Notes: generated by a model not told the origin, from the letters alone. A stretch of DNA of 64,000 bases from an uncultured Ruminococcus sp. (GCA_964463355.1 CAYXBP010000002.1:77846-141845); one strand, 5' to 3'; counted from the first letter of the stretch, positions 1 through 14,252 are shown. Made by a program: numbers and translations.

Positions 1-3000
1 GCCTGCACCGCCAAGCGAATCACAGCATAAACACTGAACGCGAACAGGCAATTGCCACCTTTTTCTTTTCCATAAAGCAGCCGCAGAACAAAACCAAGTG
101 CAAGCAACGGCAGCAAATGATATTTCCCAGCAAAGTAGGTATCTGTAAAATCGAACATAGGCTGCATCCACAGAGTAATGGTGCCTATTACAGCCGAAGC
201 GGTATAGCAACCACGCCGCATCGTATCGGGCAGCACACTGCGCCCCAGATGAAACAAGAAAGCTGTCAGCAAAAACCAGGCAGCGAACAAGATCCAATCG
301 GACTGCGCTGCGGAGAATGCCCCATCCAAAGAAACAATGATCAGCCAAAGAGGCACAGCACCGCCAGCATAAGTCATCGCCCAGCCCTTACGAATGCCAC
401 CGCTGCGCAGTACGAAACCCAAATAACAAAACAGCACAAACAACAACATCAGCACGATGAGCATACAAGCAACATAAAGATTCGACCACCACATACAATG
501 CGCACGCAATGCTTCAGTAGAAAGAATCAGCGAAAAAACGGCAATGCATCCACCAACGATACGGTCATTGTGGGCAGTAAACCAGGCGGCAATGCAAAGC
601 ATCAATGCGAAAAAATAGTAGAAAGTATGCCATTGATGCGCTCCCACTGTCATCAAGGTGATACTAAAGAGCAGCGCAACGGCAGCAGTCAAAACACGCA
701 CGGCATTTTCCATGGCAATGCCGCCTGCAAATTTTCGCAGAATACCGCGATGGTACAGCACAGCAAACAATGCAAAAGGCATCAACAGTACGTAAGCAAG
801 CATCAACGCATCATTAGAAATAAGGCCGATCTGCGCACCCAATGCATAACCGCTGCGCATCAGCATTACCAGTGCAGCACCGATGCTCACAGTCGCAAAG
901 GTTTCTTTCCGTGCGGCGGTAAAGCCCACAAACAACATGACTGCCGAAAGCGTGGCGGTCAGTGCAAGCCACACCGAATTGTGTAAGCCAAGAAGTTGAT
1001 CCGTAGCAAACAGAGATCGCAGCCCATAGAAAAAAACAGTACCAACAAGCATCGTCTGCGCGACAGTATCAACGGCACAATCACCCATAAATTTCGCTTT
1101 GCCACAGCGAATCAACAAAGATACGATACCGATCAACAAAATCGGCACATAACAGCAAAGCATCACGGAACAGCTTGAAAGGGTGCCTTTCACCAAATAA
1201 TGCTCACTACCCACAGAAACGGTTTGCAGGATGCAGCACATCACTGAGAAAAACGACAATGCAGACAGTACTTTCTTTCCCTGATGTGCATAGTCCACTG
1301 TCAGCAACCAGCCAAGCAGAGCCGTAAGCACAGCGAGGAGCATCTGCCACAGGGGGAGATTCACACTCATACAAAACAGCGGCGTGATGAAGGTCACAGC
1401 GGGCAGCAGCACGGTTGCCACCGCATGGGGAGCGTAATCGCCTGTAAAATGCAGCTTTCCGCGGTGGAGCAGATAGACTGTCACGCCCAACATCAAGAAG
1501 ATGCACAAGCAGATCATTACCGATCCGTATAGAGCAACACCGCTTTGGGCATCGACAAACAGAAAATGGGTCGCAGCACTGACGCAGGCGGTCAGCACAG
1601 AGAGCAAAAAGGCTGCAAAATGCACAATGGCAAGACGCTTGTCTTGTGCAAACGCAAACAAAGCACAGCCTAACGCAAACATCACAGCGGCAAGCACTGC
1701 AAACAGCATCTGCCACGTCATCAGCTGCGTAACAGAAAAAGCAAGCACCAGATATAGCAAACCTGCGATAGGCAAAGCAACCGATGCGCAAGCCTTCACA
1801 GAATCATCGCCCACAAAGCGCACATGGCTGCGGCAGATCAAATATGTACCCACGCCCAATAAAAGCGGTACGACACTTGCAGCGCAAAGACCAGGATAAT
1901 GATCCACAAGTGCGGTCACGGTATAGCCTTCAAAAAGCTGCCAAATGCCACGGTATGCAAAAAAGAGCATCTCAGCAAACCCAAGCACAGCCAGTGGTCT
2001 TTTGCCATGGCTTGCGTAAATGCGATACACACCCACTCCGATCAGTGCATTGGCAAACAGCAGCAAACAGCAAATCGCTTTGCTGCCAGTTGGCAAAATC
2101 AAACCAACGATTGCAGGCAGAAGCACACACATCAAGAAAATACGGTGGCGCACACCAACGAATCCACGTTTTGTATGGCAATACAGTCCAAAAGCTGCTG
2201 CCGCAGAAAGCAGCGTCCAGAGCAGATATGACCAATCACAATGCGCTTGCAGACACACATCGCCTACTGCACCGCAAGACAGTGCAAGACTCAGCACAAA
2301 AAAGATACCGAAAGCGTGCTGCTTCGGAGTTTGCAGCCGACGTTCTATCGCCATGAAGAAACACCAGATTACTGCAACAACAAGCAGAATCACGGCAGCA
2401 ATGTATATAAAGCGGAATTGCCCAGCAAAACCATTTACCACCAGTTGCGCACAAAAGATCATTCCGAGCGGAAAAAGAAAATCAGAAAAAGGAGAACGCA
2501 GCGTATTGCTGCATATAAACAGAAGCCCAAATCCCAAACAGAGGACAGACATCAGCAGCAAAGCCGCATCGGCCTGTTGCAGCACAGTGTTGGAGAATCC
2601 AAGTGCAAGCACAAACAATTCAGCTGCCAGATAAGTACGAAGCCAGATATTTCCACTACGCAGCATCGAAACAAAAGTTGCCATACAAAGCAGTGCCATG
2701 CCCAGCAGCATCAACCAGTTCCAGTTTGTTCCGCTAACGCCGATACAGAGAAAAATCACGATGGCTACACCAGAAAAAATACGGAACATGATATGATAGC
2801 TTTTGGTAATATCATCAGGAAGCGTATTTGCAGTAATGAATACCAATAACACCGCAGAGGTTACTACACAGACAAGAGCGGTAAAAATCCAGCCATTGAT
2901 AGAAACCGTTTCATTGGTAAGCAAGGGTTGCATCACCCGCGCAAAGCCATAAACAGTCAGCAAGGACATCACAACCGCCGAGCCCTGCTTCAGCCTTGAC

Positions 3001-4226
3001 AACATTGCAGGAGTAACAAAGGCAACAGCAGCAGAAAATGCTGCAAATCCATACCATGCACTGCTGCCATTCATAGGAATAAACATGGGTACAGCGGCAC
3101 AGACAGTGTAAATCATAGAGAAAGCCCCAAGTGTTTCGCCAATGGGTGCAGGCAAACGAAAAGAAAGAGAGGGTGCAAAAAACGTCAGCAGCAGCGCATA
3201 GGCGGCAGCAGAGAGCGTCCACGCACCATAAGAAGGCAGAAGCGCCCACATTGCGCAAAGAAAGGAGGCAGAGAATCCAATAAGGGTTGCAATACCCCAT
3301 GGCTTTTCATGACTGCATTTTACTCCAATAGCAGCGGTAACGGTAAATGCAGCAGTAGCAATCGTCAACAACCACGGATTTGATCCACCAGAAAACGTTT
3401 CGCCTAGAAGAGAGAGATACCCTGCCGCCCAAATGGAGATCGGCAAAAACGTTGCACCCAACGAGAAAAATGCCATACCAGTACGTTTCAAATCCCAGAC
3501 CTTATATGCCAACGCTGAGGCACCAAAAAACAGCACACTACCTGCGGCAAGCGTCATAAGTTTGCCAAAATCTGCCATTGCATTCCACGAAGTACGCACA
3601 AAAAGCAATCCTGCAAGAATAATAAGCACAACGCCCACACCAAGCATCACACTAATGGCAGAGGTGGTACTCTTTTTTTGATGTGAAGATGCCTTTTGTG
3701 GCACAGATTCAGCAGAACTTGACATGGCTTTTTGTTGATACACAGGCTGCGATGCAGGGGTTCCTGGTGCGACCATGGGCTGGGCAGAAGAGAGTTTGCC
3801 CGCCGAAGGCACTTGTGCCTGCGGCGCAGGCGATGCTTGCATCGCCTGTTGCCCGAAAAGCTTCGCTTTTTGGGCAACAAACTCCTCATCAGTGAGAACA
3901 CCGTTTGCGTTAAGGGCACGCAGCTTTTGCAGCTCCTGCTGCAAAAGTGTCTGCGTTGCAGAGGCAGCCTGCGGCTGCCCTGCGTGCCCTTCCAAAGAAT
4001 GCAAATTCTGCTGCGGTATCACTGTTCCCTGCACAACATATGGTGGTACTGAAAGTCCCTCTTGTAAAATATCTTTTGGCGAGATGCGGTTTTCTTGCAA
4101 TAACCGCCGCAACAAATTCTCATATCGGCACTTTTCATCGCGCAAATTTCGATCTTGATTATGTTTTAGAAGCAGACACGAAGTTGCAATTAAGAGTATG
4201 ATACTTAACATAATCCAGAATATCAT
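1..4226 (-). CDS. Giant polytopic membrane protein: N-terminal TM helix, SHOCT domain, Q/P/S-rich linker, then roughly 30 or more hydrophobic helices. The 3' end runs off the window (partial, at least 1408 codons).
   Basis: My own translation of complement(3..4226). The ATG at 4226-4224 is preceded by AAGGAG with an 11-nt spacer. The protein reads MIFWIMLSIILLIATSCLLL..., then a SHOCT-like LQKLRALNANGVLTDEEFVAQKAKLF (about 3855-3935), then continuous membrane-protein-like sequence down to ...GGNCLFAFSVYAVIRLAVQ at position 3. I met no stop. None of the listed minus-strand ORFs in 1..4226 is in this frame, which fits an open-ended ORF that the track omits. Plus-strand ORFs here are Q/H/K/C-rich antisense shadows. 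Confidence 0.8.
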   Translation of the reverse strand, partial: MIFWIMLSIILLIATSCLLLKHNQDRNLRDEKCRYENLLRRLLQENRISPKDILQEGLSVPPYVVQGTVIPQQNLHSLEGHAGQPQAASATQTLLQQELQKLRALNANGVLTDEEFVAQKAKLFGQQAMQASPAPQAQVPSAGKLSSAQPMVAPGTPASQPVYQQKAMSSSAESVPQKASSHQKKSTTSAISVMLGVGVVLIILAGLLFVRTSWNAMADFGKLMTLAAGSVLFFGASALAYKVWDLKRTGMAFFSLGATFLPISIWAAGYLSLLGETFSGGSNPWLLTIATAAFTVTAAIGVKCSHEKPWGIATLIGFSASFLCAMWALLPSYGAWTLSAAAYALLLTFFAPSLSFRLPAPIGETLGAFSMIYTVCAAVPMFIPMNGSSAWYGFAAFSAAVAFVTPAMLSRLKQGSAVVMSLLTVYGFARVMQPLLTNETVSINGWIFTALVCVVTSAVLLVFITANTLPDDITKSYHIMFRIFSGVAIVIFLCIGVSGTNWNWLMLLGMALLCMATFVSMLRSGNIWLRTYLAAELFVLALGFSNTVLQQADAALLLMSVLCLGFGLLFICSNTLRSPFSDFLFPLGMIFCAQLVVNGFAGQFRFIYIAAVILLVVAVIWCFFMAIERRLQTPKQHAFGIFFVLSLALSCGAVGDVCLQAHCDWSYLLWTLLSAAAAFGLYCHTKRGFVGVRHRIFLMCVLLPAIVGLILPTGSKAICCLLLFANALIGVGVYRIYASHGKRPLAVLGFAEMLFFAYRGIWQLFEGYTVTALVDHYPGLCAASVVPLLLGVGTYLICRSHVRFVGDDSVKACASVALPIAGLLYLVLAFSVTQLMTWQMLFAVLAAVMFALGCALFAFAQDKRLAIVHFAAFLLSVLTACVSAATHFLFVDAQSGVALYGSVMICLCIFLMLGVTVYLLHRGKLHFTGDYAPHAVATVLLPAVTFITPLFCMSVNLPLWQMLLAVLTALLGWLLTVDYAHQGKKVLSALSFFSVMCCILQTVSVGSEHYLVKGTLSSCSVMLCCYVPILLIGIVSLLIRCGKAKFMGDCAVDTVAQTMLVGTVFFYGLRSLFATDQLLGLHNSVWLALTATLSAVMLFVGFTAARKETFATVSIGAALVMLMRSGYALGAQIGLISNDALMLAYVLLMPFALFAVLYHRGILRKFAGGIAMENAVRVLTAAVALLFSITLMTVGAHQWHTFYYFFALMLCIAAWFTAHNDRIVGGCIAVFSLILSTEALRAHCMWWSNLYVACMLIVLMLLFVLFCYLGFVLRSGGIRKGWAMTYAGGAVPLWLIIVSLDGAFSAAQSDWILFAAWFLLTAFLFHLGRSVLPDTMRRGCYTASAVIGTITLWMQPMFDFTDTYFAGKYHLLPLLALGFVLRLLYGKEKGGNCLFAFSVYAVIRLAVQ

Positions 4227-4305
4227 GTAACGATCAACTCCTTTCCCATTGCCATGACAATATCGTCTTTATGCACATAATAATTGCATCATGAACTTTT
4301 CATTT

Positions 4306-4334
4306 ATTATAGCACACATTCACTCCATTTGCAA
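4306..4334 (-). promoter_or_regulatory. Sigma-A-type promoter for the giant membrane protein gene
   Basis: On the minus strand, TTGCAA (4334-4329), 17-nt spacer, TATAAT (4311-4306), with a TGc extended -10. Confidence 0.55.
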
Positions 4335-4345
4335 GCTTTTCCATC

Positions 4346-4379
4346 AAAAAACAAGGCGCACCGCCCTTGCGATGCGCCC
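4346..4379 (-). terminator. Rho-independent terminator after rlmH
   Basis: On the minus strand, the GGCGCA/TGCGCC stem (4378-4373 pairing with 4360-4355) is followed by TTGTTTTTT. Confidence 0.55.
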
Positions 4380-4392
4380 TGTGGTTACTCCT

Positions 4393-4869
4393 CTATTTAT
4401 GATATTTTCCACCTTCTGCAATCTGGTAGCCCCGATAGATTTGCTCCAACAACATCACCCTTGCCAGCTGATGTGGAAATGTCATGGGAGAAAAAGACAG
4501 CTTATGCATTGCCACTTGTTTGATCTTCTCCGCTAACCCATGACTGCTGCCAATAACAAAAGTTAGCGCCGAACATCCACTCAACGCAGGCGCAATCAAC
4601 ATTTCTGAGAAAGCCTCACTTGTGCAAGGCTTTCCCTCAATGCACAGTGCAAACATTTCTCCCTCGATATGGCGCAGAATTTGCTCTGCTTCATTCTGCA
4701 ACGCTCTCCGAATTTCCCCATCCGACGGATTCTCAGGCAGTCTGCTCTCGCTTAGCTCCACGATGTGCAATTTGCAATATCGTCCTAAACGCTTTGTGTA
4801 CTCCTCACAAGCCTCTCTCAACCAACGCTCTTTCAGCTTGCCCACTGCAATGATACTCACACGCGTCAA
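4393..4869 (-). CDS. rlmH: 23S rRNA (pseudouridine1915-N3)-methyltransferase RlmH (SPOUT family)
   Basis: (M)TRVSIIAVGKLKERWLREACEEYTKRL...TFPHQLARVMLLEQIYRGYQI is typical RlmH of about 158 aa. The TTG start at 4869 overlaps the upstream TGA (TTGA). The tracked 222-aa form has an implausible G/C-rich extension. A GTG at 4860 is an alternative start. Confidence 0.88.
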   Translation of the reverse strand: MTRVSIIAVGKLKERWLREACEEYTKRLGRYCKLHIVELSESRLPENPSDGEIRRALQNEAEQILRHIEGEMFALCIEGKPCTSEAFSEMLIAPALSGCSALTFVIGSSHGLAEKIKQVAMHKLSFSPMTFPHQLARVMLLEQIYRGYQIAEGGKYHK

Positions 4870-5651
4870 AACGCGATCATCTCCCCCTCGGTTTCCACCT
4901 TTGCCACTTGCAGCAGATAATCCTGTCCACGCACCATATCTGCAAGTGCATCTACCACCGCATCCTCCGCAAGCTGCGGGCGGTTGTTCTCCTGGCTGAG
5001 ATGTCCCAAAATCAACCTTGTTGTTCCACTTTGCACGAGTTTTCGCACTTGCACTGCGCAATCCATATTAGAAAGATGCCCCACTTTCGAAAGTATCCTT
5101 GCCTTGACATAAGGTGGATATTTTCCACTGCGCAGCAGATTTTCGTCATAATTTGCTTCCAACAGCACCAGATTACAGCCGTTTAACGCCTCCTCCACGC
5201 CACGAGTCACATAGCCAAGATCTGTACAAACAGCGCAAATCTTGCCATCCGGCATTACAACGCGATATCCACAGCTTTGCACTGTATCATGAGGGGTTTC
5301 AAAGGCATTCAGTGAGATATCTGCCACATGAACACTCCCCGTGTTGATTTCCTGCAAATTTGCGCAGGATGCTATTGCATTATGGTCAATAAGATTCCGC
5401 AGTGTTTTGCCTTGCCCATAGATCGGCACAGGCAAATGCTCTGTCAGCGTTTTCAGTCCACGCACATGGTCAGAGTGGTCGTGGGTGATGAACACCCCCT
5501 GTATCGCTGAAAGCGGCAGATTACAGCGTTCCATCCCCATGCACAGTCGCCGATATGTAACCCCTGCGTCAATCAACACACCGCCCCTTGGCGTACCAAT
5601 GAATGTTGCGTTGCCTTTGCTGGAGCTAAACAACGGGTAAAGTCGTGCCAA
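4866..5651 (-). CDS. MBL-fold metallo-hydrolase (YycJ/WalJ-like)
   Basis: HxHxDH motif (ITHDHSDHVRGL) with an LFSSSKGNATFIG N terminus. The TTG start at 5651 follows GGGAGG by 8 nt. The tracked upstream extension overlaps a terminator hairpin. Confidence 0.85.
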   Translation of the reverse strand: MARLYPLFSSSKGNATFIGTPRGGVLIDAGVTYRRLCMGMERCNLPLSAIQGVFITHDHSDHVRGLKTLTEHLPVPIYGQGKTLRNLIDHNAIASCANLQEINTGSVHVADISLNAFETPHDTVQSCGYRVVMPDGKICAVCTDLGYVTRGVEEALNGCNLVLLEANYDENLLRSGKYPPYVKARILSKVGHLSNMDCAVQVRKLVQSGTTRLILGHLSQENNRPQLAEDAVVDALADMVRGQDYLLQVAKVETEGEMIAF

Positions 5652-5671
5652 GATATACACCTCCCTGATCG

Positions 5672-5705
5672 TATGAAAGAAAGGGCGAAAATGCATTTCG
5701 CCCTT
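5672..5705 (-). terminator. Rho-independent terminator after murA
   Basis: 10-bp stem AAGGGCGAAA (5681-5690) / TTTCGCCCTT (5696-5705). On the minus strand it is followed by TTCTTTCAT. Confidence 0.6.
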
Positions 5706-9104: not shown

Positions 9105-12100
9105 TCAATCTGCGAAATAACGCACGCCACTTTCAAAAATTTTCTGATCCTTTTCGCCAGGAACGTTCTTGCACACCTGCGTGCCCATACGCTCACTGTG
9201 GCCCATCTTGCCCAGCACACGGCCATCGGGAGATGTAATGCCCTCAATTGCATCCACTGAGCCATTCGGATTAAAACGAATATCCATGGTAGGACGACCA
9301 CTGAGATCCACATACTGCGTTGCAATCTGCCCATTGCCAGCCATGCGGCGCAGCAACGATGCCGGAGCGATAAATCGCCCCTCACCGTGAGAGATCGCCA
9401 CGGTATGCAGATCATCGGGCTTACAGGCAGCAAGCCACGGCGATTTATTAGACGCGATTCGGGTAGTGACCATCATGCTCTGGTGGCGCGCAATGGTGTT
9501 GAAGGTCAATGTGGGGGAATTGTCGCTCATCTCCACAATCTCACCAAAGGGCACCAATCCCAGCTTGATAAGGGCTTGGAAGCCATTGCAAATACCCAAC
9601 ATCAGACCATCGCGCTGTTGCAGCAGCTTGTGAACCGCCTCTGCCACACGAGGATTACGGAAGAACGCCGTGATGAATTTACCAGATCCGTCTGGCTCAT
9701 CGCCGCCAGAGAAGCCACCAGGCAACATGATCATCTGGGCATTGGCGATGGACTTCACCGCTGCCTCCACAGATTCCTCAATCGCATCTGCGGAAAGGTT
9801 ACGAATCACGAGAATCTCAGGTTCTGCACCAGCACGTGCAAAGGCACGGGCGGTATCATATTCGCAGTTGGTGCCAGGGAACACAGGAATCAGCACACGA
9901 GGCTTTGCGTATTTCACCGCAGGAGTCGGACGGCGTTCTGCGGTATGACTATATGCCTCTATAGTAGCAAACTCAGTCTTGATGCGGCATGGATACACAG
10001 ATTCCAGCTTACCCTCCCATGCTTTTTGCAGTGTATCAAGACTGATCGTGTAGCTGTCGCTGAAGATCTTGTACTGCTCGGTTGTGCGACCGATGACCTC
10101 CTCATCTGCCTTGGCAGCACCGTCAAGCTCAATGATAAACGATCCGCTAAAGGGTGCAAACAAGATTTGCTCGGGCAAAGTGCAGCTGAATTCAAAGCCG
10201 ATATGGTTGCCAAAGCACATCTTTGCAATGCCTTCTGCGACACCGCCGCCAGCAACTGTCCAAATCGCTTTTGCTCTACCCTCGGAGATCAGCTGTTCCA
10301 CACGTTCAAATGTAGCACGAACGCTGTCCCAATCAGGCAGCCCATTGCTGTCATAAGAGGGAGCAAGACGAATGACGGTATCTCCCGCCGCTTTAAATTC
10401 GGTAGAAAGCACGCGCGTGGTGTTGGCAGTAGATACGGCAAAGGAAACAAGCGTTGGTGGCACATCGACGTTTTCAAAAGTGCCAGACATGGAATCCTTT
10501 CCGCCGATGGATGCACAGCCAAGTTCCAGTTGCGCCTTGAAGGCACCCAGCAGCGCAGAGAAGGGCTTACCCCAACGAGCGGGATCATTCTGAGTGCGCT
10601 CGAAATACTCCTGGAAGGTCAGCCAGCACTGATGCCGACTGCCGCCTGCGGCGATCACTTTTGCCACAGACTCGATGACAGCCTCCATAGCACCGTGGTA
10701 GGGCGAATGCTCTGAGATGCTGGGCTGGAAGCCGTATGCCATCAGCGAGCAGGTTGTGGTATCCCCTTGCAGTATGGGAATCTTTGCCGCCATTGCCTGT
10801 GTGGGAGTCAGCTGATAGACACCGCCAAAGGGCATCAGCACGGTACCCGCACCGATAGTGGAATCAAATTTCTCTACCAAGCCCTTCTGCGAACAGACAT
10901 TCAAATCAGACATCAGTTCTTTCCATCCATCGGGGGTATCCTCAAAGAGAATCGGGGCACTCTGCTGGGGCGCGGCTGCCACGATATCGGTATGCTTTTC
11001 CGCGCCATTGGAGTTCAAAAACGCTCTGGAAAGGTCAACGATCACATTACCATTCCAGTGCATACGCAGACGATTCGTATCTGTTGCCTTTGCCACCACG
11101 GTTGCCAGCAGATTCTCTGCTGCGGCGGCTTTCATGAAGGCATCCACATCTTCTGGCGCAACAACCACCGCCATACGCTCCTGAGATTCAGAAATGGCAA
11201 GCTCGGTGCCGTCCAGACCGTCATATTTTCTCGGCACTGCATTGAGGTCAATATCCAAGCCGTCGGTCAGCTCACCAATGGCGACCGATACACCGCCCGC
11301 GCCAAAATCATTGCAACGTTTGATAAGCTTCGTCACGGCAGGGTCACGGAACAATCTTTGCAGCTTTCGTTCTTCAGGGGCATTGCCCTTTTGCACCTCC
11401 GCACCGCAATGGGTCAACGATTCCAGCGTATGAGATTTGGAAGAGCCTGTTGCGCCACCACAGCCATCTCTGCCAGTTTTTCCACCCAGCAGGATGATCA
11501 CATCGCCAGGCACGGGTGCTTCACGGCGGATATTCTCCGCAGGGGCAGCACCCACCACCGCGCCGATCTCCAGACGCTTTGCCACATAACCTGGGTGATA
11601 CACCTCTGTGACATGACCCGTAGCCAGACCAATCTGGTTGCCGTAGGAGCTGTAGCCGTTTGCCGCACCCACCGTGATCTTTCTCTGGGGCAGCTTGCCA
11701 GGCATGGTATCTGCCACAGGCACCAGCGGATTTGCCGCACCAGTCACGCGCATTGCCTGATACACATAGCTTCTGCCAGAAAGCGGGTCACGAATCGCAC
11801 CGCCCAGGCAGGTTGCCGCACCACCAAACGGTTCAATCTCGGTGGGGTGATTGTGGGTTTCGTTTTTAAACATCAAAATCCAGTCCTCATCACCAGCATC
11901 GGTTTCCACCTTAATCTTTACAGAGCAGGCATTAATCTCCTCGCTTTCATCCAATGCAGGAATTTTCCCATCTGCCTTCAGCTTGCGCATTGCCATGGTT
12001 GCCATATCCATCAAGGTTACAGGCTTTGCCTCTCTACCCAGTTCTTTACGGATGCGCAGGTAGTCCTCATACGTTTCGCGGATATAGGGGGTGTCCACCT

Positions 12101-12812
12101 CCACATTATCGATCGTGGTCAGGAAGGTCGTATGGCGGCAGTGATCGCTCCAATAGGTATCAATCATGCGTATCTCAGTGATAGTTGGGTCACGGTGTTC
12201 TGTATCACGGAAGTAGGACTGGCAGAATTTGATATCATCCAAATCCATTGCCAGTGCATACTCATGTAAGAATGCTTTTAAGCCGCTCTCATCCAGCGTG
12301 CAGAAGCCCTCGAGAGTAGCGACGGTGCTGGGGATAGCATAGTTGGTATCCAAAGAATCCACGGTGTCCAGTGATGCCTCACGGCTTTCCACGGGATTGA
12401 TGAGATACTGCTTCAGACGGTCAAATTCGGCATCGGTAATGCTGCCGCCAACGATGTACACACGTGCATTGCGCACACGGCATCGCTCCTTACCGTTTAA
12501 GATCTGAATGCACTGTTCGCAAGAATCGGCGCGCTGATCAAACTGTCCAGGCAGATACTCTACAGCAAAAATACGCTCCTGATTAGAGAGCATAGGCAAT
12601 TTTTCATAAACATAGTCCACGGCAGGCTCAGAGAACACAGTGGGCACAGCGCGGCGAAAATCCTCCTCCTCAATGTGGTCTGCATCGTAGCGGTTCAGCA
12701 CGCGGATGCTCAGCACATTCAGGCGCAGTGCGGTACGCAAATCTGCCAACACAGACTGTGCTTCGACTGCAAAGGGGGGCTTTTTTTCGGTATAAATGCG
12801 ATAAACTGACAT
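9105..12812 (-). CDS. purL: Phosphoribosylformylglycinamidine synthase (single-chain large FGAM synthase)
   Basis: 1235 aa. The N-terminal, AIR-synthase-like and C-terminal glutaminase domains (LGICNGFQALIKLG) are all recognisable. Confidence 0.96.
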   Translation of the reverse strand: MSVYRIYTEKKPPFAVEAQSVLADLRTALRLNVLSIRVLNRYDADHIEEEDFRRAVPTVFSEPAVDYVYEKLPMLSNQERIFAVEYLPGQFDQRADSCEQCIQILNGKERCRVRNARVYIVGGSITDAEFDRLKQYLINPVESREASLDTVDSLDTNYAIPSTVATLEGFCTLDESGLKAFLHEYALAMDLDDIKFCQSYFRDTEHRDPTITEIRMIDTYWSDHCRHTTFLTTIDNVEVDTPYIRETYEDYLRIRKELGREAKPVTLMDMATMAMRKLKADGKIPALDESEEINACSVKIKVETDAGDEDWILMFKNETHNHPTEIEPFGGAATCLGGAIRDPLSGRSYVYQAMRVTGAANPLVPVADTMPGKLPQRKITVGAANGYSSYGNQIGLATGHVTEVYHPGYVAKRLEIGAVVGAAPAENIRREAPVPGDVIILLGGKTGRDGCGGATGSSKSHTLESLTHCGAEVQKGNAPEERKLQRLFRDPAVTKLIKRCNDFGAGGVSVAIGELTDGLDIDLNAVPRKYDGLDGTELAISESQERMAVVVAPEDVDAFMKAAAAENLLATVVAKATDTNRLRMHWNGNVIVDLSRAFLNSNGAEKHTDIVAAAPQQSAPILFEDTPDGWKELMSDLNVCSQKGLVEKFDSTIGAGTVLMPFGGVYQLTPTQAMAAKIPILQGDTTTCSLMAYGFQPSISEHSPYHGAMEAVIESVAKVIAAGGSRHQCWLTFQEYFERTQNDPARWGKPFSALLGAFKAQLELGCASIGGKDSMSGTFENVDVPPTLVSFAVSTANTTRVLSTEFKAAGDTVIRLAPSYDSNGLPDWDSVRATFERVEQLISEGRAKAIWTVAGGGVAEGIAKMCFGNHIGFEFSCTLPEQILFAPFSGSFIIELDGAAKADEEVIGRTTEQYKIFSDSYTISLDTLQKAWEGKLESVYPCRIKTEFATIEAYSHTAERRPTPAVKYAKPRVLIPVFPGTNCEYDTARAFARAGAEPEILVIRNLSADAIEESVEAAVKSIANAQMIMLPGGFSGGDEPDGSGKFITAFFRNPRVAEAVHKLLQQRDGLMLGICNGFQALIKLGLVPFGEIVEMSDNSPTLTFNTIARHQSMMVTTRIASNKSPWLAACKPDDLHTVAISHGEGRFIAPASLLRRMAGNGQIATQYVDLSGRPTMDIRFNPNGSVDAIEGITSPDGRVLGKMGHSERMGTQVCKNVPGEKDQKIFESGVRYFAD

Positions 12813-12836
12813 AATGCAACAACCTCCGGTTTTGTA

Positions 12837-14252
12837 TCATTGGATACGGGCGATACAGCAATCGTCCTCATACCCTTCTATTGTAACACAAATAATAGAA
12901 TTGTGCAAACGTTTTTCGGCTTTTTCCGGAAAAATTTTCACAAGTGTACCATCTGGCATATGCCCTTGGTAATAGCTATGTGCATTTTGATACACAAGCG
13001 GCGCACTTTCAAGCGTCTTGTCCCAAAACCGTTCTCCGGATCCCGCGCAATCCTTGCAATTTTCCACCAGTACCGATACTGCACGCCCCACATATTGCTC
13101 CAGATGCTTTTTGGTACAACGTGCAGCCACCACCGCAAGCTCACTTGCGCGCTGATTTTTCACATCTCCAGGCACCTGATCTGGCATAGCGGCGGCGAGA
13201 GTGCCTTCTCTGGGCGAATAGGGAAAAATATGCACCTTGGCAAACCCGATCTGCTGTACCATTTGCAGGGTTTGGGCAAAATCCTGATCCGTTTCTCCAG
13301 GGAAGCCCACGATCACATCGGTAGTAATGGCAGATTCTGGAAACAGCGCGCGAATCTGATGCACGAGGTGATCATAGCTCAGCGAAGAATAGTGGCGATT
13401 CATTCGTCGCAGCACGCTATCTGCACCGCTTTGCAGCGAAAGATGAAACTGCGGGCAGAATTTTCCGCACGCTGCAAATCGCCGCAACAGTTCTGACGTA
13501 ATGCGCTCTGGTTCCAGTGAGCCAAGCCGCACGCGTCGGATTCCTTCGGGCGCGGCACAGGCATCTACGGCATCTGCAAGGGAATCTCCCGTATCAACGC
13601 CATAAAATCCAAGGTTGATCCCCGTCAGTACGATCTCTTGAAAGCCTTGTTCGGCAAGGCTTTTGGCCTCCGCAGCAATGCTCTCCAGCGGCATGGAACG
13701 GCATCTGCCGCGTGCATAGGGAATGATGCAGTAGGTGCAAAACTGATTGCAGCCCTCCTGTATTTTGAGAAACGCCCTGGTGCGTTGTGTATCAGCACTG
13801 GCAAGCAATGAAAAAGGCTCCCCGCCTTTGGGTAAATAGGGCACGATGACATTACAGGGAGTATCGGCAGCCGGTTTTGATTGTGCAGAGGGGCATTCAC
13901 TTTTGTGGTTGTTCAGGAAATGTGCTTGCAGCAAGGCAGCGATCTGTTCTCGATTTTTGGTGCCCACCACATAATCCGCCTCATCAAAAGCATCCTTGGG
14001 AAAAGCCTGCGGCCAGCAACCCGTCAGCACAATCACCGCTTTGGGATAGCGTTTGCGCAGTGAGCGCATGGTCTGCCGCACTTTGCGCACGCTCTCGGCG
14101 GTTACTGCACAACTGTTGATGATCAAACAATCTGCAAGCATGGCGCGCGCTGCTTCATCAAAGCCATTGTCCAGCAGCAGTTTACGGATTCCTGCACTAT
14201 CTGCCTGATTGACTTTACATCCAAAAGTAAATACTTTGAATTTTTTTAACAT
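12837..14252 (-). CDS. mtaB: tRNA t6A37 methylthiotransferase MtaB (radical SAM, MiaB family)
   Basis: MLKKFKVFTFGCKVNQADS N terminus and radical-SAM motif IQEGCNQFCTYCIIPYARG. Confidence 0.85.
   Translation of the reverse strand: MLKKFKVFTFGCKVNQADSAGIRKLLLDNGFDEAARAMLADCLIINSCAVTAESVRKVRQTMRSLRKRYPKAVIVLTGCWPQAFPKDAFDEADYVVGTKNREQIAALLQAHFLNNHKSECPSAQSKPAADTPCNVIVPYLPKGGEPFSLLASADTQRTRAFLKIQEGCNQFCTYCIIPYARGRCRSMPLESIAAEAKSLAEQGFQEIVLTGINLGFYGVDTGDSLADAVDACAAPEGIRRVRLGSLEPERITSELLRRFAACGKFCPQFHLSLQSGADSVLRRMNRHYSSLSYDHLVHQIRALFPESAITTDVIVGFPGETDQDFAQTLQMVQQIGFAKVHIFPYSPREGTLAAAMPDQVPGDVKNQRASELAVVAARCTKKHLEQYVGRAVSVLVENCKDCAGSGERFWDKTLESAPLVYQNAHSYYQGHMPDGTLVKIFPEKAEKRLHNSIICVTIEGYEDDCCIARIQ

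What the first reader, a model, noticed from the sequence alone, without database searches (positions are those of the whole stretch)
1..4226. Giant SHOCT-headed polytopic membrane protein that is invisible in the ORF track
The first 4.2 kb look empty of credible genes in the track, which shows only Q/H/K/C-rich plus-strand ORFs and short Cys-rich minus ORFs. Yet complement(3..4226) reads as one uninterrupted ORF of at least 1408 codons with a good RBS and a consensus promoter (4334-4306). It is simply not closed inside the window. Its architecture is one TM helix, a cytoplasmic-looking segment with a SHOCT motif (LRALNANGVLTDEEFVAQKAKLF), a Gln/Pro/Ser-rich linker, then a very long run of hydrophobic helices. 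I do not recognise a characterised family. It may relate to the large DUF-type membrane proteins of Firmicutes, but that is a guess. Its size and placement next to rlmH are unusual.
Basis: seen in the sequence. Interest (0 to 1): 0.7.

Follow-up and report, generated by a model that had tools for sequence, protein, structure and literature searches.

The report
Giant 47-helix repeat membrane protein gene
The first 4.2 kb of the window encode most of a real, conserved but uncharacterised 1504-residue membrane protein of an uncultured gut Oscillospiraceae bacterium, predicted to cross the membrane about 47 times because a four-helix building block was copied in tandem; its function is unknown.

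Summary
Complement(3..4226) is an uninterrupted 1408-codon ORF with its own promoter and RBS. It is missing from the ORF list only because it runs off the window. A 99.98%-identical metagenome contig closes it at 1504 aa.

The protein has an N-out anchor helix, a cytoplasmic head with a sub-threshold SHOCT hairpin, and a disordered Q/A/S/P linker. About 46 more transmembrane helices follow.

The first membrane block matches Pfam DUF2157, just above threshold. In relatives, the last block weakly matches NCBIfam SCO7613_CTERM. In between lie four tandem 4-helix modules of about 118 aa; shorter relatives have one.

Other lineages amplified different modules independently. The gene is under purifying selection (dN/dS about 0.13).

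The close family occurs only in uncultured herbivore-gut Oscillospiraceae MAGs. The wider superfamily has about 980 clusters, none with a functional name where names were available.

AlphaFold models are confident, but nothing in the PDB matches them. I found no conserved operon partner and no phage or plasmid link.

Function is unknown. My best guess is a non-enzymatic, extensible membrane scaffold or envelope sensor, held with low confidence.

The parts
3..4226 (-). Partial CDS: codons 1-1408 of a 1504-codon gene for a giant polytopic membrane protein. The last 96 codons lie beyond the window start.
   Evidence: No stop in 1408 codons. Closed at 1504 aa by contig L001, with 1 mismatch in 4224 nt. 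dN/dS 0.13 against a 79%-identical orthologue.
4306..4334 (-). Sigma-70-type promoter, TTGCAA-17 nt-TATAAT, with TG before the -10 element
   Evidence: Best promoter-like site in 1-5200, 10 of 12 matches
4238..4247 (-). Ribosome-binding site GGGAAAGGAG, 11 nt upstream of ATG 4226
   Evidence: Read from the sequence. An in-frame TAA at 4271-4269 has no start codon between it and the ATG.
4351..4382 (-). Intrinsic terminator of the upstream rlmH gene, which makes the giant gene a separate transcription unit at its 5' end
   Evidence: 14-bp stem with 9 GC pairs, followed by a T-run
4167..4223 (-). TM1 (aa 2-20), an N-out/C-in signal-anchor helix
   Evidence: Hydropathy 2.69. It is followed by a K/R-rich segment; the head has 18 K+R.
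4053..4124 (-). Membrane-proximal basic helix (aa 35-58, NLLRRLLQENRISPKDILQEGL), conserved across the family and superfamily (LLxxLxxxxRIxPxE, or GRIS..EY)
   Evidence: Family consensus. N-termini of 38 distant representatives.
3858..3935 (-). SHOCT-type two-helix motif (aa 98-123), cytoplasmic
   Evidence: PF09851 at 22.4 bits in the whole protein and 25.9 bits in the isolated head; cut-off 27. 15 of 38 family members match. Helices 95-111 and 117-132 in the AlphaFold model of P0013.
3672..3857 (-). Q/A/S/P-rich disordered cytoplasmic linker (aa 124-185)
   Evidence: Composition. pLDDT about 30 in the equivalent part of the P0013 model. dN/dS 0.84.
3267..3671 (-). Conserved N-terminal membrane block (aa 186-320, TM2-TM6), which matches DUF2157. 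It includes the conserved outward loop LLGxxxSGxxNPW.
   Evidence: PF09925 at 33.1 bits (aa 174-296) and 36.6 bits when isolated; cut-off 32.4. Most invariant columns fall here. dN/dS 0.05.
2052..3266 (-). Middle membrane region (aa 321-725, about TM7-TM20). No family match. The last block (aa 603-713) is possibly a degenerate copy of the repeat module.
   Evidence: AlphaFold helices. hhalign probability 30% in register with module 2.
1701..2051 (-). Repeat module 1 (aa 726-842, 4 TM helices)
   Evidence: Iterated module HMM, domain E 1e-35. hhalign 98-99.5% to the other modules.
1335..1691 (-). Repeat module 2 (aa 846-964, 4 TM helices)
   Evidence: Domain E 8e-32. hhalign 99.8% to module 3.
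996..1325 (-). Repeat module 3 (aa 968-1077, 4 TM helices)
   Evidence: Domain E 2e-33. hhalign 99.3-99.8%.
618..956 (-). Repeat module 4 (aa 1091-1203, 4 TM helices), the copy shared with short-form relatives
   Evidence: Domain E 3e-25. Short forms lack exactly aa 768-1126.
3..617 (-). Start of the conserved C-terminal membrane region (aa 1204-1408). It includes the outward loop WMQPMFDFTDTYFAGKYHLLPL (window 105-170). The SCO7613_CTERM-like block and the invariant FWEDWEW tail lie mostly beyond the window.
   Evidence: Conservation profile. NF047321 matches in 25 of 38 relatives. dN/dS 0.08.

Best explanation
Shown: the locus is a genuine, separately promoted gene for a 1504-residue integral membrane protein of an uncultured gut Oscillospiraceae ('Ruminococcus sp.') bacterium. 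It is predicted to have about 47 transmembrane helices, with the N-terminus outside and the C-terminus inside. From N- to C-terminus it has an anchor helix, a cytoplasmic basic helix plus a SHOCT-type hairpin, a disordered tether, a strongly conserved DUF2157 membrane block, a variable middle array, and a strongly conserved C-terminal membrane block. That last block resembles SCO7613_CTERM in relatives and ends in an invariant Trp-rich cytoplasmic tail. The protein is so large because an ancient tandem amplification raised one 4-helix module of about 118 aa from one copy to four. Other lineages of the same superfamily amplified other 4-helix modules independently.

Inferred: the protein is most likely not an enzyme or a classical transporter. 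I think it is a membrane-embedded helical-repeat scaffold or sensor of the cell envelope. The two conserved end blocks, with their conserved outward-facing loops, would form the functional core. The middle array would be an extensible in-plane platform whose length can change without loss of function. The tethered SHOCT head and the C-terminal tail would couple the protein to the inner membrane leaflet or to cytoplasmic partners. In this clade a partner could be the TPR protein that appears to be co-transcribed downstream.

I put the gene and architecture at about 0.9 and the scaffold/sensor role at about 0.35. The confidence value given for this explanation refers to the functional claim.
For: Real gene. 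The ORF is open, with a promoter, RBS and upstream terminator. It is closed by a near-identical contig. dN/dS is 0.13 overall, 0.05 in the DUF2157 block and 0.08 in the C-terminal block. There are 39 close homologues and 36 loci among species genomes. The exhaustive search found 981 cluster representatives at E<=1e-3.

Topology. AlphaFold models have mean pLDDT 78.5 and 81.7 and pTM 0.58 and 0.61, with 4 helices per module. Loop K+R is 37 on the predicted inside against 7 outside in the window protein. Across 24 short forms it is 37.5 against 11.9.

Repeats. Short forms lack exactly aa 768-1126, which is 3 modules. The module HMM finds 4 copies in all 11 long forms and 1 strong copy in short forms. 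hhalign gives 98-99.8% between modules. Other members have independent repeats with periods of 106-111 or 125 aa.

Domain matches. DUF2157 matches 33 of 38 members, SCO7613_CTERM 25 of 38, and SHOCT 15 of 38.

Scaffold rather than enzyme or transporter. Loops are only 8-23 residues, so there is no soluble catalytic domain. Module number varies and module dN/dS is more relaxed at 0.18. No transporter or enzyme family matches in Pfam or NCBIfam. No PDB fold reaches E<=1e-3, and the top hits are helical-repeat solenoids. The literature equates DUF2157 with the LiaI/LiaF membrane domain and sees SHOCT-like domains as anchors to the inner leaflet (PMC11237479).
Against: There is no experimental or expression evidence of any kind. 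No operon partner is conserved across the family, and no PspA/LiaH, Toastrack or LiaRS genes are nearby. The Lia link rests on one paper's equation of PF09925 with LiaF, and no Lia-specific model matched here. I could not inspect model coordinates or PAE, so the overall shape (arc, ring or bundle) is unknown. Conserved polar residues in outward loops (N283, Q1355, K1368, H1370, E1413, D1417) could equally mark a catalytic or substrate-binding site. The helix count is uncertain by about 2, because TM9 and TM43 are short and the charge bias is weak around TM9-TM12.
Confidence: 0.35

Rival explanations
1. It is a transporter, channel or flippase, for example for a lipid-linked envelope precursor or for lipids. 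The conserved end blocks would form the pathway and the repeats would add auxiliary helices.
For: The protein is polytopic with very short loops. Conserved polar and charged residues sit in outward loops and at helix ends: WMQPxFDxxxTYxxGKxHLLPL, ExxAD and NPW. Single modules give weak sub-threshold hits to Na_Ala_symp (E 0.008) and ABC2_membrane_3 (E 0.06). Envelope genes (MreC, PASTA kinase, MFS, peptidase S11, VanY, LytR) lie in the wider neighbourhoods.
Against: No transporter family passes any threshold. No transporter fold appears among the Foldseek hits at E<=1e-3. None of the invariant columns lies in mid-membrane as a charged residue. A helix number that varies freely between lineages is unusual for a defined translocation pathway.
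Confidence: 0.25
2. It is a membrane-embedded enzyme acting on the outer face, such as a glycosyl-, acyl- or polymer-transferase of the GT-C, Wzy or ligase type, or the PHA-related activity once proposed for SCO7613.
For: Relatives' C-terminal block resembles SCO7613_CTERM. Deletion of SCO7613 lowered PHA in Streptomyces coelicolor (PMC8313934). His, Asp, Glu and Lys are conserved in outward loops. One short-form locus lies near MBOAT/DHHW and UDP-glucose dehydrogenase genes.
Against: No GT-C, Wzy, O-antigen ligase, MBOAT or PhaC model matches. The SCO7613 authors found no catalytic triad and suspected an indirect effect. The largest outward loops are only 19-23 residues, far smaller than the catalytic loops of such enzymes (my knowledge). 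The SCO7613_CTERM matches are all below the curated cut-off.
Confidence: 0.15
3. It is part of a phage, a mobile element or an anti-phage defence system. The TIR-like/TPR neighbour would be the sensor and the giant membrane protein the effector.
For: The downstream 547-aa protein has a weak CAP12-type TIR hit (E 0.11) and PHROG hits (E 3e-20) in its N-terminal domain, plus TPR repeats. It appears to be co-transcribed. The pair is inverted as a unit in a relative.
Against: PADLOC gives no hit for either protein. No relatives were found in viral contigs, phage genomes or plasmids. The flanks are core housekeeping genes in stable synteny. The neighbour is absent from short-form loci. The gene is under steady purifying selection.
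Confidence: 0.04
4. It is not a functional gene: a chance ORF, a pseudogene or an assembly artefact.
For: Nothing beyond the fact that the ORF is unclosed in the window and has no functional name in public records.
Against: The ORF has 1408 open codons and dN/dS of 0.13. Full-length orthologues occur in dozens of independent assemblies. The AlphaFold models are confident. The charge bias in the loops is strong.
Confidence: 0.01

Closest known systems
Pfam DUF2157 (PF09925), 'predicted membrane protein'. One comparative study (PMC11237479) equates it with the LiaI/LiaF 4-TM membrane domain of the Lia/Psp envelope-stress system.
   Same: The first and most conserved membrane block (aa 174-296) matches the model above its gathering score, as do 33 of 38 relatives at E<=0.01. 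The cytoplasmic SHOCT-type head fits the membrane-proximal theme described in that paper.
   Different: DUF2157 covers under 10% of the protein. No Toastrack/DUF2154 domain and no LiaH/PspA, LiaRS or PspC genes lie nearby. No Lia-specific model matched. The function of DUF2157 itself is unknown.
SCO7613 C-terminal domain-containing membrane proteins (NCBIfam NF047321; Streptomyces coelicolor SCO7613)
   Same: The conserved C-terminal membrane block matches in 25 of 38 family members (best E 7.6e-11) and in distant superfamily members. Some distant members also have a zinc-ribbon head, a linker and DUF2157 (P0145).
   Different: All scores are below the 45-bit cut-off, and the window protein's full-length form gives no hit at E<=0.01. 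Most of that block lies outside the window. SCO7613 has only an indirect PHA phenotype (PMC8313934).
PIEZO1/2 blades: nine repeated 4-TM 'transmembrane helical units' in a 38-TM protomer (PMC12377734)
   Same: It is a very large single chain built from tandem 4-TM units with short loops. The predicted helix count of about 47 exceeds PIEZO's 38.
   Different: No sequence or Foldseek similarity was detected: no hit at E<=1e-3, and no Piezo entry in the top 50. No pore module, beam or cap is evident. This is an analogy of construction only.
SHOCT domain proteins (PF09851; PMC3581485)
   Same: A two-helix amphipathic motif, LRALNANGVLTDEEFVAQKAKLF, lies next to a membrane anchor.
   Different: It sits N-terminal to the bulk of the protein rather than at the C-terminus, and it is below the Pfam cut-off here. 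Only 15 of 38 relatives have it. The function of SHOCT is itself unresolved, and an oligomerisation test was negative.
Soluble alpha-solenoids (TPR and HEAT proteins such as Ctr9, Ski3 and CRM1)
   Same: They are the top Foldseek matches, which reflects a long array of antiparallel helix pairs.
   Different: E-values are all above 1e-3, TM-scores are 0.25 or lower, and rmsd is 17-48 A. Those proteins are soluble, whereas this one is 68% hydrophobic.

Membership tests
Pfam DUF2157 (PF09925) | Score at or above the curated gathering cut-off (32.4 bits) | tested here: met
   33.1 bits for the window ORF and 36.6 bits for the isolated block. 33 of 38 relatives match at E<=0.01.
Pfam SHOCT (PF09851) | Score at or above the gathering cut-off (27 bits) | tested here: not met
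   22.4 bits in the whole protein and 25.9 bits in the isolated head. The relative P0009 reaches 27.6 bits.
Pfam SHOCT (PF09851) | Short two-helix amphipathic hairpin | tested here: met
   The AlphaFold model of relative P0013 has helices 95-111 and 117-132 with block pLDDT 79-87. The window protein's head was not modelled.
NCBIfam SCO7613_CTERM (NF047321) | Score at or above the curated cut-off (45 bits) | tested here: not met
   P0001 gives no hit at E<=0.01. 25 of 38 relatives hit with best E 7.6e-11, all below the cut-off. This suggests remote homology, not membership.
LiaI/LiaF-type envelope-stress module | 4-TM LiaI-LiaF-TM domain | tested here: inconclusive
   The only link is the literature's equation of the domain with PF09925. 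No Lia-specific Pfam model matched at E<=10.
LiaI/LiaF-type envelope-stress module | Genomic association with LiaH/PspA, a Toastrack domain or LiaRS | tested here: not met
   None of these appears in 6-10 kb flanks of 36 loci. Whole genomes were not examined.
PIEZO-like mechanosensitive channels | Tandem 4-TM helical units | tested here: met
   There are four homologous modules of 4 helices each. This shows analogy only.
PIEZO-like mechanosensitive channels | Sequence or structural similarity to Piezo, and a C-terminal pore module that forms a trimer | tested here: not met
   The profile search of PDB sequences found nothing. Foldseek gave no hit at E<=1e-3 and no Piezo entry in the top 50. 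Oligomeric state cannot be tested here.
Known transporter or GT-C/Wzy/MBOAT-type membrane enzyme families | A match to any curated family model or solved fold | tested here: not met
   Pfam and NCBIfam scans of the whole protein, its blocks and 38 relatives gave only noise-level hits. Foldseek gave nothing significant.
Anti-phage defence systems (PADLOC) and phage proteins | A match to a defence or phage family, or presence on viral or plasmid DNA | tested here: not met
   PADLOC gave none. PHROGs matched only the SHOCT-like stretch. Viral contigs, plasmids and phages gave no relatives.

The most novel reading that the evidence does not exclude
This is the founding example of an undescribed class of single-chain 'membrane solenoids'. 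These would be proteins made of tandem 4-helix transmembrane units whose number is tuned by repeated amplification: about 35 helices in short forms, about 47 here, and probably more in the 1700-1800-residue relatives. They would form a large arc or ring in the membrane plane that senses or shapes membrane mechanics or corrals a lipid or protein patch, in the manner of Piezo blades but evolved independently in bacteria.
Probability: 0.15. Interest if true: 0.85.

Novelty: new variant of a known kind. Interest (0 to 1): 0.55.

Why it matters
If the prediction holds, this would be one of the highest transmembrane-helix counts in any single polypeptide. About 47 helices compares with 38 for PIEZO1, which I believe is often cited as the record among solved structures. 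The protein has no structural relative in the PDB. It also shows that membrane proteins can grow by tandem amplification of 4-helix units, as soluble repeat proteins do, and that this happened several times within one superfamily. The superfamily has about 980 clusters at 50% identity. Where names were available they were only 'hypothetical protein', and I found no functional study of this family. It therefore marks a sizeable blind spot in the envelope biology of gut Clostridia. It also offers a handle on what DUF2157 and SCO7613-type proteins do. The practical lesson for genome scans is simple: an ORF that runs off the window edge can hide the largest gene in the window.

Tried and rejected
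1. A plain self-BLAST for internal repeats returned nothing. Offset autocorrelation, a module HMM and hhalign were needed.
2. I tested whether the whole membrane region is a concatemer of one 4-TM unit related to DUF2157. This was rejected. Only the four modules are clearly related. The block upstream is weak at 30%, and the DUF2157 and C-terminal blocks show no relation.
3. I looked for an operon partner conserved across the family. None exists. The dockerin/M66-like neighbour seen in 11 loci is explained by synteny, because the giant gene alone flips orientation. The 547-aa TPR neighbour is restricted to one clade.
4. A word-indexed profile search added almost nothing. The exhaustive HMM search was required to see the superfamily.
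5. A PDB sequence search, Foldseek against the PDB for both models and Foldseek against BFVD gave no significant match.
6. PADLOC, PHROGs, viral contigs, plasmids and phages gave no mobile-element or defence link.
7. Rfam on the whole window gave nothing.
8. The PhaC-type function suggested for SCO7613 was considered and judged unsupported, since the authors themselves doubt it.
9. Literature searches for comparable single-chain proteins with 40 or more TM helices, or for 'membrane solenoid' proteins, found none in the library.
10. Model coordinates are not exposed to scripts, so I could not test whether the two conserved end blocks touch.

Full report
**Observation**

Translating complement(3..4226) gives 1408 codons with no stop. 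The ORF lister omits ORFs that run off the source, so the region shows only short shadow ORFs.

ATG 4226-4224 is the first possible start after an in-frame TAA at 4271-4269. GGGAAAGGAG at 4247-4238 precedes it (read). The best promoter-like site in 1-5200 is TTGCAA-17-TATAAT at 4334-4306, with a TG extension. A strong hairpin terminator at 4382-4351 ends the upstream rlmH. So the gene has its own 5' transcription signals.

The plus-strand AT skew of +0.31 to +0.44 over 1-3500 comes from 42% T at codon position 2 of this minus-strand gene.

**Closing the ORF**

A protein search found a 1504-aa protein, P0001. Its contig (L001, Logan SRR19576295) differs from the window at 1 of 4224 shared nucleotides. 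The window therefore lacks only the last 96 codons.

**Is it a real gene?**

- Against a 79%-identical orthologue (L002), dN/dS is 0.13 overall.
- By region it is 0.05 in the first membrane block, 0.08 in the C-terminal region, 0.18 in the repeat modules and 0.84 in the linker.
- Full-length relatives occur in 36 loci among 185,579 species genomes. All are uncultured Oscillospiraceae, 'Ruminococcus sp.' or Clostridia MAGs. Those whose source is named come from sheep, goat, buffalo, horse or pig gut.
- An exhaustive HMM search of 1.84 billion cluster representatives found 981 at E<=1e-3 and 282 at E<=1e-30, with lengths of about 835-1800 aa among the full-length listed hits.
- The only names seen are 'hypothetical protein'.

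**Architecture and topology**

- The head is TM1 (aa 2-20), then a basic helix conserved throughout the superfamily, then a SHOCT-type motif at aa 98-123.
- That motif scores 22.4-25.9 bits against a cut-off of 27. It passes in relative P0009 and matches 15 of 38 relatives.
- A Q/A/S/P-rich linker follows. It is disordered in the AlphaFold model of relative P0013.
- Two AlphaFold models were made. The complete short form P0013 has mean pLDDT 78.5 and pTM 0.58. Window residues 185-1384 have mean pLDDT 81.7 and pTM 0.61. Both are all-helical with short loops.
- Using the modelled helices, loop K+R alternates strongly. The window protein has 37 on the predicted inside against 7 outside. Across 24 short forms the figures are 37.5 against 11.9.
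- This gives 43 helices up to residue 1383. Four more follow by homology to P0013, for about 47 in total, N-out and C-in. The count is uncertain by about 2, because two helices are short and the bias is weak around TM9-TM12.

**Internal repeats**

- A motif (R/H-x-G-K-x-x-F-x-G-D, alternating with H-x-K-R) recurs about every 120 residues. Module pairs score up to z=12.5 against shuffles.
- Short-form relatives (about 1075-1231 aa) lack exactly residues 768-1126, which is 359 aa or three modules.
- An iterated module HMM finds four copies in all eleven long forms. In P0001 they are aa 726-842, 846-964, 968-1077 and 1091-1203, with E from 1e-25 to 1e-35. Short forms have one strong copy.
- Profile-profile comparison gives 98-99.8% probability among the four modules. 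The block just upstream scores only 30%, and the two end blocks show no relation.
- Each module is 4 helices. Modules are 16-27% identical, so the amplification is old.
- Other long superfamily members carry their own tandem repeats, with periods of 106-111 aa or 125 aa at other positions; P0050 reaches z=20. Amplification of a unit of about this size has therefore happened repeatedly and independently.

**Known families**

- The first membrane block matches Pfam DUF2157, at 33.1 bits in the whole protein and 36.6 bits isolated, against a cut-off of 32.4. 33 of 38 relatives also match.
- The C-terminal block of 25 of 38 relatives matches NCBIfam SCO7613_CTERM, with best E 7.6e-11. All are below the 45-bit cut-off, and P0001 itself gives no hit. 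Distant members also match.
- One distant member has a zinc-ribbon head instead of SHOCT.
- The middle region and the modules match no family.
- Nothing significant was found in PDB sequences or by Foldseek against the PDB for either model. The top hits are soluble TPR or HEAT solenoids, with TM-scores of 0.25 or lower. BFVD also gave nothing.

**Literature**

- The only paper in the library that discusses DUF2157 equates PF09925 with the LiaI/LiaF membrane domain of the Lia/Psp envelope-stress system. It proposes that SHOCT-like domains anchor proteins to the inner leaflet (PMC11237479).
- The original SHOCT paper found no oligomerisation (PMC3581485).
- Deleting SCO7613 lowered PHA in Streptomyces coelicolor, but the authors suspect an indirect effect (PMC8313934).
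- PIEZO1 is the best-known array of tandem 4-TM units, with 38 TM helices and nine units (PMC12377734).
- No paper describing comparable bacterial proteins was found.

**Genomic context**

- In the window's clade the order is rlmH, giant gene, a 541-547-aa soluble protein, then MFS, with MreC and a PASTA kinase beyond.
- In the 49%-identical relative, the giant gene and that neighbour are inverted together.
- No terminator separates them in L001. The gap is 49 nt and contains a GAGGAGG RBS.
- The neighbour has TPR repeats and an N-terminal domain with PHROG hits and a weak TIR-type hit. It is 72% identical between those two genomes.
- Short-form loci have entirely different neighbours.
- Clustering the flanks of 36 loci shows only synteny blocks, with the giant gene sometimes flipped on its own.
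- There is no defence, phage or plasmid signal and no paralog in the window.

**Interpretation**

The gene, its topology, its repeat structure and its phylogenetic spread are shown by the analyses above. Its function is inferred.

Several features argue against a classical enzyme or transporter:
- the loops are very short, so there is no soluble catalytic domain;
- the helix number varies freely between lineages;
- selection on the modules is relaxed, while the two end blocks are tightly conserved;
- no enzyme or transporter family or fold matches.

These features fit a membrane-embedded helical-repeat scaffold or sensor. Its conserved ends would form the working core, and its tethered head and invariant C-terminal tail (…RFWEDWEW) would contact cytoplasmic partners. 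I put this at about 0.35. A transporter or flippase gets 0.25 and an outer-face enzyme 0.15.

The Piezo comparison is an analogy of construction only. Membership was tested and not met.

**Verdict**

This is a real and unusually large gene. It belongs to a catalogued but uncharacterised DUF2157/SCO7613-like superfamily, and it stands out for a four-fold tandem amplification of a 4-helix module that gives about 47 predicted transmembrane helices.

Noticed in passing
L001:13794-15437 (+), just beyond the window's left edge: A 547-aa soluble protein lies 49 nt downstream of the giant gene with no terminator between them. Its N-terminal domain has PHROG hits (E 3e-20) and a weak CAP12-type TIR hit, followed by a coiled coil and TPR repeats. 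It is 72% identical between two genomes in which the giant protein is only 49% identical, and it is inverted together with the giant gene. PADLOC gives no hit. The giant protein's invariant free C-terminal tail FWEDWEW could be a TPR ligand, but that is speculation.
   Followed up: partly
Loci L012/L015/L031 versus L020/L023/L025/L036; L001/L024/L028 versus L006/L035: The giant gene has flipped orientation between otherwise syntenic flanks in several genomes, either alone or with its downstream neighbour. No inverted repeats or recombinase genes were looked for.
   Followed up: no
Superfamily members P0050, P0020, P0029, P0035, P0038, P0048, P0051, P0163, P0171, P0087: These have independent tandem repeats with periods of 106-111 aa (P0050 z=20) or 125 aa (P0087), at positions different from the window protein's 119-123-aa repeat. 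Some members reach 1700-1800 aa and may have well over 50 TM helices.
   Followed up: partly
window 4866-5696 (-) and 4393-4869 (-): The MBL-fold hydrolase upstream of rlmH carries a precomputed Pfam hit to Anti-Pycsar_Apyc1 as well as Lactamase_B. An MBL-fold gene followed by rlmH resembles the walJ(yycJ)-rlmH arrangement of Bacillus (my knowledge), so this is probably housekeeping. The ORF lister over-extends rlmH to 222 aa (TTG start at 5061), whereas the called gene is 158 aa starting at TTG 4869 and overlapping the MBL stop codon.
   Followed up: no
window 1-64000: Rfam at gathering thresholds finds no RNA family at all in the 64 kb: no rRNA, riboswitch, T-box or leader. ARAGORN was not run.
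   Followed up: no
window 4167-4223 (-), TM1: Most superfamily members have a conserved W-L-I-S-P-I motif in the N-terminal anchor helix. The window protein (MIFWIMLSIILLIATS) has lost the Ser-Pro.
   Followed up: no
L004/L005:6144-7847 and 11697-13262; L006:14432-15949: Short-form loci often have a 567-aa SBP_bac_11+VWA protein immediately upstream on the same strand, and a roughly 521-aa dockerin-containing, M66-like protein adjacent. A dockerin+GDSL lipase lies near the long form in L006. This is probably synteny in cellulosome-bearing ruminococci, but it was not tested.
   Followed up: partly
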